A stretch of 49,376 nt of DNA. Origin: a virus. Taxonomy: Duplodnaviria; Heunggongvirae; Uroviricota; Caudoviricetes. Shown piece by piece: positions 17,331 through 17,640 of this stretch. The stretch lies in IMG/VR virus record IMGVR_UViG_2909251562_000001; one strand, given 5' to 3'. The translations under genes and the position numbers were made by a program. Numbering within the stretch: the first letter of the stretch is position 1; every line of letters begins with the position of its first letter. Under the pieces are notes generated by a model. That model saw only the letters and a program-made list of their open reading frames with translations, had not been told where the DNA came from and did not search any database.

Positions 17331-17406
17331 GGCCCTTTAGCTCAGTGGTGAGAGCGAGCGACTCATAATCGCCAGGTCGCTGGTTCAAATCCAGCAAGGG
17401 CCACCA
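17331..17406 (+). tRNA. tRNA with CAU anticodon (Ile2 lysidine-type or Met)
   Basis: 76 nt with encoded CCA; 7-bp acceptor stem GGCCCTT/AAGGGCC; anticodon loop CUCAUAA; closely resembles E. coli ileX as recalled. Confidence 0.85.
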
Positions 17407-17407
17407 A

Positions 17408-17484
17408 CCGTCACCAGTTCATCAGGAAAGAGCGTCAACCCTTTAAGTTGAGTGTGCGAGGTTCGAGTCCCCGGTGGCGGTCCA
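17408..17484 (+). tRNA. atypical tRNA-like gene (anticodon loop CCUUUAA, possibly Lys-UUU)
   Basis: 77 nt ending in CCA; acceptor CCGTCAC/GTGGCGG (one G-U pair); T-arm with TTCGAGT loop; anticodon stem TCAAC/GTTGA. Position 33 is C rather than U and the 5' nucleotide is C. Confidence 0.4.
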
Positions 17485-17486
17485 GT

Positions 17487-17562
17487 GCCGACTTAGCTCA
17501 GTAGGTAGAGCAACTGACTTGTAATCAGTAGGTCACCAGTTCGATTCCGGTAGTCGGCACCA
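17487..17562 (+). tRNA. tRNA-Thr (UGU)
   Basis: 76 nt with CCA; perfect acceptor stem GCCGACT/AGTCGGC; anticodon stem ACTGA/TCAGT, loop CUUGUAA. Confidence 0.8.
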
Positions 17563-17565
17563 TAT

Positions 17566-17640
17566 GCGGGTATCGTATAATGGCTATTACCTCAGCCTTC
17601 CAAGCTGATGATGCGGGTTCGATTCCCGCTACCCGCTCCA
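17566..17640 (+). tRNA. tRNA-Gly (UCC)
   Basis: 75 nt with CCA; acceptor GCGGGTA/TACCCGC; anticodon stem TCAGC/GCTGA, loop CUUCCAA; T-loop TTCGATT. Confidence 0.75.

What the first reader, a model, noticed from the sequence alone, without database searches (positions are those of the whole stretch)
17331..17640. Four tRNA genes packed behind tR', one of them atypical
Downstream of Q and its terminator are four tRNA-like genes within 310 bp, separated by only 1-3 nt: CAU (Ile2/Met), an atypical one, Thr-UGU and Gly-UCC. The second folds as a cloverleaf with CCA but has C at position 33, a C 5' end and anticodon loop CCUUUAA, so it is either an unusual tRNA-Lys(UUU), a recoding or suppressor-type tRNA, or a decaying pseudo-tRNA. 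Phage tRNAs in this position are expressed with the late genes and can offset codon bias or counter host tRNA-targeting defences.
Basis: partly seen in the sequence, partly recalled or inferred. Interest (0 to 1): 0.5.

Follow-up and report, generated by a model that had tools for sequence, protein, structure and literature searches.

The report
Prophage tRNA operon with shifted-anticodon tRNA
A defective lambda-like prophage of E. coli carries four tightly packed tRNA genes with their own promoter, and the odd second one is a phage arginine-tRNA relative whose anticodon now reads lysine codons and which, in this copy, is probably half-decayed.

Summary
ARAGORN finds four tRNAs at exactly 17331-17640, 1, 2 and 3 nt apart. 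Genes 1, 3 and 4 are solid (66-74 bits). Gene 1 is an ileZ-type tRNA-Ile2(CAU). Gene 3 is identical to host thrU. Gene 4 is host glyT with one compensatory pair.

Gene 2 belongs to the argN lineage, the tRNA-Arg that follows ileZ in Shiga-toxin phages. Its anticodon has shifted from UCU/UCG to UUU, and U33 has become C. This UUU/C33 allele family sits in prophages of 797 of 5,426 complete E. coli genomes. NCBI's PGAP annotation calls the common allele tRNA-Lys (44 bits).

The window allele has three further changes (C4U, U8C, C11U). It scores 31.3 bits against a threshold of 29, and PGAP does not annotate it in genomes that carry this exact allele.

I read it as a weakened or non-functional relic that is still transcribed and processed with the operon. 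A real rival remains: a working, non-host-like tRNA-Lys that escapes nucleases which cut tRNA-Lys. It lacks the PARIS AriB recognition motif, and C33 sits at the PrrC cut site.

The operon also has its own conserved promoter, so it is not purely a late-gene product.

The parts
16431..17120 (+). Late antiterminator Q gene
   Evidence: PGAP annotates 'bacteriophage antitermination protein Q' in the near-identical E. coli 67-1 (5 mismatches over 49,376 nt) and in FDAARGOS_1077. The ORF is listed.
17104..17132 (+). PR'-like promoter overlapping the end of Q (TTGCAA-17-TATATT)
   Evidence: Consensus scan, 9 of 12 matches. The position is analogous to lambda PR'. The function is inferred.
17184..17211 (.). 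Intrinsic terminator (tR'-like): hairpin CCCGC/GCGGG at 17188-17203, T7 run at 17204-17210, A-tract upstream, so it may work in both directions
   Evidence: Read directly. The scan reports it on the minus strand. It lies about 70 nt after the PR'-like start.
17293..17321 (+). Dedicated promoter of the tRNA operon (TTGCAA-17-TATTAT), followed by a GC-rich discriminator CCTGCGCCC up to tRNA +1
   Evidence: Scan hit. All 60 distinct upstream flanks of ileZ-type arrays keep TTGNNN-N16-18-TATYAT at the same distance, while sequence further upstream diverges.
17331..17406 (+). tRNA-Ile2 (anticodon CAU, read as Ile after lysidine modification), ileZ type
   Evidence: ARAGORN. Rfam 72.5 bits. PGAP calls it tRNA-Ile. 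68/76 identical to K-12 ileX. Identical to ileZ of phage Stx2a_F349.
17408..17484 (+). Atypical argN-lineage tRNA-like gene: anticodon UUU, loop CCUUUAA (C33), C8, U4-G69 and U11-G24 wobbles, A:C mismatch in the T stem (middle pair of the stem, the third of five), U73, CCA
   Evidence: ARAGORN calls Lys(ttt). Rfam 31.3 bits against a gathering score of 29 when scanned alone, missed in larger scans. Not annotated by PGAP in genomes with the identical sequence. Alignments with Arg(UCU), Arg(UCG) and Lys-like relatives. Its cloverleaf is 7.0 kcal/mol above the minimum-free-energy fold.
17487..17562 (+). tRNA-Thr(UGU), an exact copy of host thrU
   Evidence: ARAGORN. Rfam 73.8 bits. 76/76 identical to MG1655 thrU.
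17566..17640 (+). tRNA-Gly(UCC), host glyT type
   Evidence: ARAGORN. Rfam 65.6 bits. Differs from MG1655 glyT only by the compensatory pair C6-G66 to U6-A66.

Best explanation
The locus is a compact four-gene tRNA operon with its own promoter, in a defective Rac-type lambdoid prophage. It lies between the Q/PR'/tR' region and the lysis genes.

Gene 1 is an ileZ-type tRNA-Ile2(CAU). Genes 3 and 4 are captured copies of host thrU and glyT. These three decode AUA, ACA and GGA. Those codons are over-used in this prophage's early genes and, by my recollection of K-12 codon frequencies, under-used by E. coli.

Gene 2 descends from the phage tRNA-Arg 'argN'. Two transitions in the anticodon loop, C35 to U and U33 to C, turned CUUCUAA into CCUUUAA. 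This removed the main ArgRS determinant (C35) and created the main LysRS determinant (UUU).

The allele in this window then picked up C4U, U8C and C11U. These weaken the acceptor and D stems and remove the conserved U8.

I infer that the RNA is still made, because it sits inside the operon. I also infer that it is still excised: with spacers of 1-3 nt, RNase P cleavage at each 5' end also defines the neighbour's 3' end. But I think this copy contributes little or nothing to decoding. If it is charged at all, it is charged by LysRS and reads AAA/AAG harmlessly.

Shown here: the anatomy, the ancestry, the allele series and its population frequencies, and the promoter conservation. Inferred: transcription, processing, charging and low activity.
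For: Ancestry:
- Genes 1 and 2 are 89.7% identical to ileZ-argN of Stx phages.
- Relatives with the same body and the same TCAAC/GTTGA anticodon stem carry CTTCTAA, i.e. Arg UCU (L004, L005).
- The family cloverleaf is supported across 36 distinct members: 96.2% of cells pair, against 29-53% when the partners are slid, and 5 pairs show compensatory changes.

Graded decay (Rfam bits and gap between cloverleaf and minimum-free-energy fold):
- Clean U33 relative: 53.2 bits, 0.0 kcal/mol.
- Common C33 allele: 44.4 bits, 2.7 kcal/mol.
- Window allele: 31.3 bits, 7.0 kcal/mol.
- PGAP annotates the common allele as tRNA-Lys and leaves the window allele unannotated: every listed 100%-identical hit has no feature under it, out of 170 genomes at 99% identity or more.

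The slot is dispensable:
- 36 of 120 loci found through ileZ have an argN slot with no recognisable anticodon arm.
- Other alleles carry a 1-nt D-stem deletion, a deleted anticodon arm or an argN/argO fusion.

The prophage itself is decaying: cro/cI and gpJ frameshifts and an IS66-family insertion.

No codon need: AAA is already 31-47 per 1000 codons, and K-12 has at least five identical tRNA-Lys(UUU) genes.

Own promoter.
Against: - Within the UUU/C33 clade, gene 2 does not evolve clearly faster than its genuine neighbours. Nucleotide diversity per site is 0.026, against 0.009, 0.013 and 0.019. Mutational events number 14, against 10, 17 and 9. Its stem changes are mostly wobble-preserving (5 kept, 2 broken).
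- The allele family is common (797 of 5,426 genomes) and sits in many different phage backgrounds.
- It makes up the large majority of four-gene arrays (16 of 16 in the ileZ-anchored IMG/VR sample; the Arg(UCU) sister alleles appeared only in two E. coli genome records).
- Loop positions 33-38 are invariant in 130 loci retrieved with the loop left free.
- A UUU anticodon also arose independently on the thrU body in relatives. That hints at selection for a phage-borne UUU tRNA.
- The window allele still passes the Rfam threshold and keeps G18G19, the T loop, A37 and CCA.
Confidence: 0.5

Rival explanations
1. Gene 2, at least as the common allele and possibly the window allele too, is a working tRNA-Lys(UUU) made by recruiting a phage tRNA-Arg. 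Because its body is unlike host tRNA-Lys and position 33 is C, it survives nucleases that cut tRNA-Lys (PARIS AriB, PrrC, RloC). Lysine codons can then still be read when those defences fire. This would be the temperate-phage counterpart of the T5 tRNA-Lys.
For: - AriB recognises U36-A-A-U-C|A41 plus U16. The changes U39A, A41C and U16C protect T5 tRNA-Lys (PMC12409363; T5 sequence checked). Gene 2 reads U36-A-A-G-U-U41 and has C16, so it lacks the motif.
- PrrC cuts 3' of U33 (PMC2610378), which is exactly the position changed to C.
- C33 occurs in 16 of 144 unique tRNAs from 239 loci, and all 16 belong to this clade.
- Loop positions 33-38 are invariant in 130 loci.
- The 36-UAA-38 motif needed for t6A is kept, and U33 is not a bacterial t6A determinant (PMC13276492).
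- Diversity is comparable to the neighbouring tRNAs, and prevalence is high.
- UUU arose convergently on the thrU body.
- A clean U33 version shows compensatory changes, T4-A69 and CGGGG/CCCCG, so a UUU tRNA on this body can be well formed.
Against: - U33 and, in the window allele, U8 are near-universal in bacterial elongator tRNAs.
- The T stem has an A:C mismatch.
- The discriminator is U73, not the A73 of E. coli tRNA-Lys.
- Gene 3 is an exact thrU copy with the AriB motif intact, so the array as a whole is not built to resist PARIS.
- No charging, cleavage or plaque data exist.
- The clade is confined to E. coli and Shigella, so conservation may simply reflect youth.
- Several alleles in the clade are plainly damaged.
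Confidence: 0.27
2. Gene 2 is an uncharged tRNA-like decoy. Its anticodon stem-loop looks like tRNA-Lys and binds an anticodon nuclease or another tRNA-binding factor without being consumed.
For: The authors of the PARIS study raise competition and non-productive complexes as a possible mode of action for viral tRNAs (PMC12409363). C33 lies at the PrrC scissile junction. The structure is kept while the decoding-critical U33 is lost.
Against: There is no direct evidence. AriB also reads features (U39, A41, U16) that gene 2 lacks, so binding is doubtful. Expression from a single prophage copy would have to compete with the abundant host tRNA-Lys.
Confidence: 0.07
3. Gene 2 is a recoding tRNA: a frameshift, nonsense or missense suppressor.
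For: The anticodon loop is non-canonical. A relative of the U33 type has an 8-nt loop CTTTTTAT (L242), the classic architecture for +1 frameshift suppression.
Against: The window loop has 7 nt and a sense anticodon, UUU. ArgRS needs C35 (my recollection of established identity rules), so mischarging with Arg is unlikely. The 8-nt variant sits next to a damaged ileZ and looks like a slip in a T run.
Confidence: 0.03

Closest known systems
ileZ-argN-argO tRNA cluster downstream of Q in Shiga-toxin (933W-type) lambdoid phages
   Same: Same position after Q, PR' and tR'. Identical ileZ. Gene 2 occupies the argN slot 1 nt after ileZ, and genes 1+2 are 89.7% identical to ileZ+argN. It shares C1-G72, the 9-nt D loop, the A:C mismatch in the T stem and the promoter architecture.
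   Different: The anticodon is UUU with C33, instead of UCG or UCU with U33. argO is replaced by copies of host thrU and glyT. No toxin genes follow.
Phage T5 tRNA-Lys(UUU), which neutralises the PARIS AriB nuclease (PMC11464382, PMC12409363)
   Same: A phage-borne tRNA with the anticodon of the main AriB target. It differs from host tRNA-Lys at all three positions shown to matter (16, 39, 41).
   Different: The T5 tRNA has a canonical loop (CUUUUAA, U33), A73 and a Lys-type body, and it has been shown to work. Gene 2 has C33, U73 and an Arg-type body, the window allele also has C8, and nothing has been tested. Temperate prophage rather than virulent phage.
Alloacceptor anticodon shift, or tRNA gene recruitment (Saks et al. 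1998, tRNA-Arg(UCU) to Thr(UGU) in E. coli; surveyed in PMC3923123 and PMC4783518)
   Same: A change at position 35 on an otherwise Arg-type body. Position 35 is the most common site of alloacceptor shifts. Relatives show the same kind of switch on the thrU body, to UUU or UCU.
   Different: Here the shift comes with loss of U33, and function after the shift is unproven. It occurs in mobile prophage arrays rather than in chromosomal or organellar tRNA sets.
Host thrU-tyrU-glyT-thrT operon of E. coli
   Same: Gene 3 is identical to thrU. Gene 4 is glyT with one compensatory pair. Two related arrays still carry the start of tyrU after thrU.
   Different: tyrU, the 116-nt spacer and thrT are gone. 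The two genes are 3 nt apart and fused behind ileZ and argN.

Membership tests
Bacterial elongator tRNA (Rfam RF00005) | Score at or above the curated gathering threshold of 29 bits | tested here: met
   31.3 bits, E = 1.8e-5, when 17405-17487 is scanned alone. Not reported in the 49 kb or 471-nt scans. Neighbouring genes score 66-74 bits.
Bacterial elongator tRNA (Rfam RF00005) | Cloverleaf with 7/4/5/5-bp stems, G18G19, T loop TTCGA, purine 37, CCA end | tested here: met
   20 of 21 pairs are standard, with one A:C in the T stem. GG, TTCGAGT, A37 and CCA are present. The family cloverleaf shows covariation.
Bacterial elongator tRNA (Rfam RF00005) | Near-universal U8 and U33 | tested here: not met
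   C8 and C33. C33 is unique to this clade among 144 unique tRNAs. C8 is shared with only a few alleles.
Bacterial elongator tRNA (Rfam RF00005) | Called by a tRNAscan-SE based annotation pipeline | tested here: not met
   PGAP annotates Ile, Thr and Gly only in genomes with the identical sequence. It annotates the common allele, 3 nt away, as tRNA-Lys.
E. coli tRNA-Lys(UUU) (LysRS substrate) | Anticodon U34 U35 U36 | tested here: met
   TTT at 34-36.
E. coli tRNA-Lys(UUU) (LysRS substrate) | Discriminator A73 and a Lys-type body | tested here: not met
   U73. Acceptor stem, D loop, anticodon stem and variable loop all differ from lysT.
E. coli tRNA-Lys(UUU) (LysRS substrate) | Aminoacylation with lysine and decoding of AAA/AAG | not testable with these tools
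   Needs a charging assay or tRNA-seq.
argN lineage of lambdoid-phage tRNA arrays | Position immediately 3' of ileZ, and sequence homology to argN | tested here: met
   1-nt spacer after ileZ. 89.7% identity of ileZ+argN to Stx phages. Aligns without gaps with 35 family members.
argN lineage of lambdoid-phage tRNA arrays | Arginine anticodon (UCG or UCU) | tested here: not met
   UUU. It is therefore a derived, alloacceptor-shifted member.
Phage counter-defence tRNA (T5 tRNA-Lys type) | Same anticodon as the nuclease target, but altered at the nuclease recognition or cleavage positions | tested here: met
   UUU with C16, G39, U40, U41 and C33. Host tRNA-Lys has U16, U39, C40, A41 and U33.
Phage counter-defence tRNA (T5 tRNA-Lys type) | Resists cleavage and rescues infection or translation when the defence is active | not testable with these tools
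   Needs AriB and PrrC cleavage assays and plating tests.
Suppressor or frameshifting tRNA | 8-nt anticodon loop, or an anticodon complementary to a stop codon | tested here: not met
   7-nt loop and sense anticodon UUU.

The most novel reading that the evidence does not exclude
The UUU/C33 allele family is a functional lysine tRNA created in nature by a position-35 anticodon switch of a phage tRNA-Arg. It is kept in prophages of about 15% of E. coli genomes because its foreign body (C16, G39-U41) and its C33 make it uncleavable by nucleases that target tRNA-Lys (PARIS AriB, PrrC). Lambdoid prophage tRNA arrays would then be evolving counter-defence tRNAs by swapping anticodons on existing scaffolds. 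The thrU body carrying UUU or UCU in relatives would be a further case of the same process.
Probability: 0.25. Interest if true: 0.7.

Novelty: new variant of a known kind. Interest (0 to 1): 0.4.

Why it matters
tRNA clusters behind Q in lambdoid phages are known and are usually explained by supply of rare codons. Three things here go beyond that explanation.

First, the cluster is a mosaic of phage-type genes (ileZ, argN) and genes captured from the host (thrU, glyT).

Second, its members change amino-acid identity by single changes at anticodon position 35. This happened on two different scaffolds.

Third, one such product, a UUU tRNA with C33 on an Arg-type body, is widespread in E. coli. 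It differs from host tRNA-Lys at exactly the positions that two known anti-phage nucleases read or cut.

If it is active, it would extend the counter-defence tRNA idea from large virulent phages to ordinary prophages. It would also be a natural example of tRNA gene recruitment. If it is inactive, it shows how a dispensable slot in a tRNA operon decays while the operon's processing layout is kept. Either way it is a caution for annotation, because the same gene is called tRNA-Lys or left out depending on three nucleotides.

Tried and rejected
- **Single-sequence folding.** Minimum-free-energy folding did not help: even thrU and ileZ do not fold into a cloverleaf. I used the constrained cloverleaf energy instead.
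- **Large Rfam scans.** The whole-window and 471-nt scans missed gene 2. That was a filter effect, not a true score below E = 10.
- **Species breadth.** A scan of one genome per species for the UUU allele found only E. coli and Shigella flexneri. No deep conservation argument is possible.
- **U33 version.** A scan for it found one IMG/VR contig. BLAST found about 20 E. coli genomes.
- **Test for selection in the clade.** The stem substitution tally across all scans is about 8 preserving to 6 breaking. This count is my own reading of the allele lists, not a computed result. The computed count on the arrays of fixed layout is 5 to 2, with event counts like those of the neighbouring genes. Neither result is decisive. 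The sequence patterns used for retrieval also fix part of gene 2, which biases its diversity downward.
- **Loop conservation.** Zero variable sites at positions 33-38, where I would expect about 1.7. That expectation, and a rough P of 0.13, are my own back-of-envelope estimates from the fraction of variable sites elsewhere in the gene, not a tool result. The difference is not significant.
- **Literature.** Searches for ileZ/argN/argO in Stx phages found nothing in the held library. Searches for the effect of U33C on bacterial decoding or on PrrC found nothing direct.
- **Recoding or suppressor reading.** Rejected on loop size and anticodon.
- **Codon-bias reading for gene 2.** Rejected, because AAA is common and well supplied.

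Full report

ARAGORN finds exactly four tRNA genes in the window, all on the + strand:
- 17331-17406, anticodon CAT
- 17408-17484, anticodon TTT
- 17487-17562, anticodon TGT
- 17566-17640, anticodon TCC

The spacers are A, GT and TAT. The Rfam tRNA model scores genes 1, 3 and 4 at 72.5, 73.8 and 65.6 bits.

Gene 2 did not appear in the whole-window scan, nor in a 471-nt scan at E up to 10. That was a filter effect. Scanned alone, it scores 31.3 bits against a gathering score of 29, E = 1.8e-5, over the full model.

Parsing it by arms shows further departures:
- C8 instead of U8
- U4-G69 and U11-G24 wobbles
- an A:C mismatch in the T stem
- U73 as discriminator

Its cloverleaf lies 7.0 kcal/mol above the minimum-free-energy fold.

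**2. Context**

The window differs at 5 of 49,376 positions from a prophage of E. coli 67-1. The PGAP annotation shows a Rac-type lambdoid prophage in this order: int, xis, exonuclease, kil, a replication module, hokD/sok, RusA, Q (16431-17120), the tRNAs, holins and an M15 endolysin, then terminase through tail fibres.

The prophage is visibly defective. cro/cI and gpJ are frameshifted, and an IS66-family element (ISCro1, 19403-22018) sits after the lysis genes.

A PR'-like promoter (17104-17132) overlaps the end of Q. A hairpin with a T7 run (17188-17210) follows about 70 nt later.

A second promoter, TTGCAA-17-TATTAT (17293-17321), has a GC-rich discriminator that runs into tRNA +1. All 60 distinct upstream flanks of related arrays keep TTGNNN-N16-18-TATYAT at this distance, while sequence further upstream diverges. 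The operon therefore very probably has its own promoter and is not only a Q-dependent late transcript.

**3. What the four genes are**

- **Gene 1** is identical to ileZ of an Stx2 phage. It is 68/76 identical to K-12 ileX, including C4-G69 and C5-G68. PGAP calls it tRNA-Ile.
- **Gene 3** is 76/76 identical to K-12 thrU.
- **Gene 4** is glyT with one compensatory pair. Two related arrays still carry the first part of tyrU after thrU. This is a footprint of capture from the host thrU-tyrU-glyT operon.
- **Gene 2** occupies the argN slot. Genes 1 and 2 together are 89.7% identical to ileZ-argN of Stx phages.

Relatives with the same body and the same TCAAC/GTTGA anticodon stem carry the loop CTTCTAA, i.e. 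Arg UCU (E. coli 720632 and IGC_EcoliInv_1.1). Stx argN carries CTTCGAA, i.e. Arg UCG.

Across 36 distinct family members the cloverleaf is well supported. 96.2% of cells pair, against 29-53% with slid partners. Five pairs show changes on both sides. Gene 2 is thus an argN-lineage tRNA with C35 to U and U33 to C.

**4. The allele series**

| Allele | Rfam bits | Gap, cloverleaf to minimum-free-energy fold | PGAP call |
|---|---|---|---|
| Clean U33 relative (loop CTTTTAT) | 53.2 | 0.0 kcal/mol | tRNA-Lys |
| Common C33 allele | 44.4 | 2.7 kcal/mol | tRNA-Lys |
| Window allele | 31.3 | 7.0 kcal/mol | none |

- The clean relative has perfect stems and a compensatory T4-A69 pair. It occurs in about 20 complete E. 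coli genomes.
- The common C33 allele is CCGCCAC TA GCTC...CCTTTAA...
- 797 of 5,426 complete genomes carry a homologue of gene 2 at 90% identity or more. Of these, 533 are at 95-99% identity and the rows sampled there are mostly the common allele. Another 170 are at 99% or more, which is the window allele.
- The window allele differs from the common allele by C4U, U8C and C11U. An intermediate with C8 and U11 only exists.
- Two sequenced phages (vB_EcoM-606R7 and vB_EcoS-689R5) carry the common allele.
- Further-damaged alleles also exist: a 1-nt D-stem deletion in PPompW prophages, G18A, extra stem mismatches and a deleted anticodon arm.
- The clade is restricted to E. coli and Shigella among species-representative genomes.

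**5. Relic or working tRNA?**

For a relic:
- Two near-universal nucleotides are lost, and the CM score is marginal.
- PGAP does not call it.
- U73 differs from the A73 of tRNA-Lys.
- The prophage is decaying.
- The argN slot is clearly dispensable. 36 of 120 loci found through ileZ lack a recognisable anticodon arm in that slot.
- There is no codon-supply reason for a UUU tRNA. AAA is 31-47 per 1000 codons here, and K-12 has at least five identical lysT-type genes.

Against a relic:
- Across 37 unique arrays, gene 2's diversity (0.026 per site) is only modestly above that of genes 1, 3 and 4 (0.009, 0.013, 0.019). The flanks are unrelated, at about 0.3.
- The number of mutational events is similar in all four genes (14 against 10, 17 and 9). 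Gene 2's stem changes are mostly wobble-preserving.
- With the loop left free, 130 loci give CCTTTAA 125 times, TCTTTAA 3 times and ACTTTAA twice. Only position 32 varies.
- C33 is unique to this clade among 144 unique tRNAs.

None of these tests is decisive. The clade is young, and part of gene 2 was fixed by the retrieval patterns.

**6. Anticodon switching in the arrays**

The thrU-type body occurs with UGU (Thr), with UUU (720632 and 2014EL-1346-6, where PGAP calls it tRNA-Lys) and with UCU (phage SerU-LTIIb, annotated tRNA-Arg). The argN body occurs with UCG, UCU and UUU.

All the amino-acid-changing switches are at position 35. That is the commonest site of alloacceptor shifts. It is also the kind of change shown experimentally to convert E. 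coli tRNA-Arg(UCU) into a working tRNA-Thr(UGU) (PMC3923123, citing Saks et al. 1998).

UUU arising on two scaffolds hints at selection for a phage-borne UUU tRNA. It does not prove it.

**7. The counter-defence lead**

[quoted passage not shown] The changes U39A, A41C and U16C protect, as in T5 tRNA-Lys (PMC12409363 and PMC11464382). I checked the T5 sequence: loop CUUUUAA, 3' stem ACCAT, C16.

Gene 2 reads U36-A-A-G-U-U41 and has C16, so it lacks the motif. Gene 3, being thrU itself, keeps it.

PrrC cuts 3' of U33 (PMC2610378), which is the base changed to C. The t6A determinant 36-UAA-38 is intact, and U33 is not needed for bacterial t6A (PMC13276492).

From memory, not checked here: classic work (Bare et al. 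1983; Dix et al. 1986) found that U33 substitutions lower decoding efficiency but do not abolish it. This makes a nuclease-resistant tRNA-Lys mechanistically coherent, but no step has been tested.

**8. Codon usage**

| Codon (per 1000) | Early genes | Late genes |
|---|---|---|
| AUA | 14.6 | 4.1 |
| AGA | 8.8 | 3.0 |
| ACA | 16.7 | 14.0 |
| GGA | 12.5 | 11.1 |

The E. coli K-12 values, from memory, are roughly 4, 2, 7 and 8. Rare-codon supply fits genes 1, 3 and 4 and the ancestral Arg form of gene 2. It fits the early genes better than the late genes.

**9. Verdict**

The locus is a known kind of feature, a lambdoid tRNA cluster behind Q, in a variant form. It has its own promoter, it mixes phage and host tRNA genes, and its argN slot has shifted to UUU with C33.

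For the window allele, these are my confidences:
- about 0.5 for a weakened or non-functional relic that is still transcribed and processed
- about 0.27 for a functional, nuclease-evading tRNA-Lys
- small weights for a decoy (0.07) or a recoding tRNA (0.03)

Interest is moderate (0.4). It would rise to about 0.7 if the allele family proves to be an active counter-defence tRNA.

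Noticed in passing
window 17293-17321: A dedicated sigma-70 promoter (TTGCAA-17-TATTAT, GC-rich discriminator) lies directly before tRNA 1. The same architecture is present in all 60 distinct upstream flanks of related arrays, which suggests expression independent of Q, possibly in lysogens.
   Followed up: yes
L004 1872-1947; L240 480-555; L010 1122-1197: Copies of the thrU-type tRNA in related prophages carry anticodon TTT (annotated tRNA-Lys) or TCT (annotated tRNA-Arg) on an almost unchanged Thr body. 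These are position-35 alloacceptor switches on a second scaffold.
   Followed up: partly
L242 401-478 (E. coli PG20180057; about 6 genomes): A relative of the clean U33 Lys(UUU) allele has an 8-nt anticodon loop, CTTTTTAT, with one extra T. That is the architecture of a +1 frameshift suppressor. The adjacent ileZ is damaged, so it may just be a slip in a decaying array.
   Followed up: no
e.g. L012; L003 2687-2768: About 30% of arrays found through ileZ (36 of 120) have an 80-82 nt argN-slot element. Its acceptor stem and CCA end are intact, but the anticodon arm is scrambled or absent and in the commonest form the T loop is altered too. The commonest form recurs in many contigs. It may be a pseudo-tRNA or a tRNA-like RNA with another role.
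   Followed up: partly
related arrays in IMG/VR loci: In two arrays the thrU copy is followed by the host spacer and the first part of tyrU (GGTGGGGTTCCCGAGCGGCCAAAGGGAGCAGACTG...). This is a footprint of capture from the host thrU-tyrU-glyT operon.
   Followed up: partly
window 19403-22018; about 6965-7208; 38497-41975: The prophage looks defective. An IS66-family element (ISCro1: tnpA, tnpB and transposase) is inserted after the lysis genes, cro/cI is frameshifted and the tail-tip gene J is frameshifted (PGAP annotation of the near-identical strain 67-1).
   Followed up: partly
window 12416-12741; 4418-4468; 49130-49333: Rfam finds the sok antitoxin RNA next to hokD, the DicF sRNA near kil and a dicB remnant, and an IS009 RNA near the right end.
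   Followed up: no
window 12915-14640: A two-gene unit upstream of the late region consists of a hypothetical protein (12915-13508) and a 373-aa helix-turn-helix protein whose C-terminal part contains an HEVAH motif, which would fit an ImmA/IrrE-type metallopeptidase. It could be an accessory or defence module. I did not examine it.
   Followed up: no
window 45884-49376: The tail-fibre region has oppositely oriented tail-fibre-assembly genes, a short recombinase-family ORF (48001-48195) and several truncated tail-fibre-assembly fragments. This looks like the remains of an invertible host-range segment.
   Followed up: no
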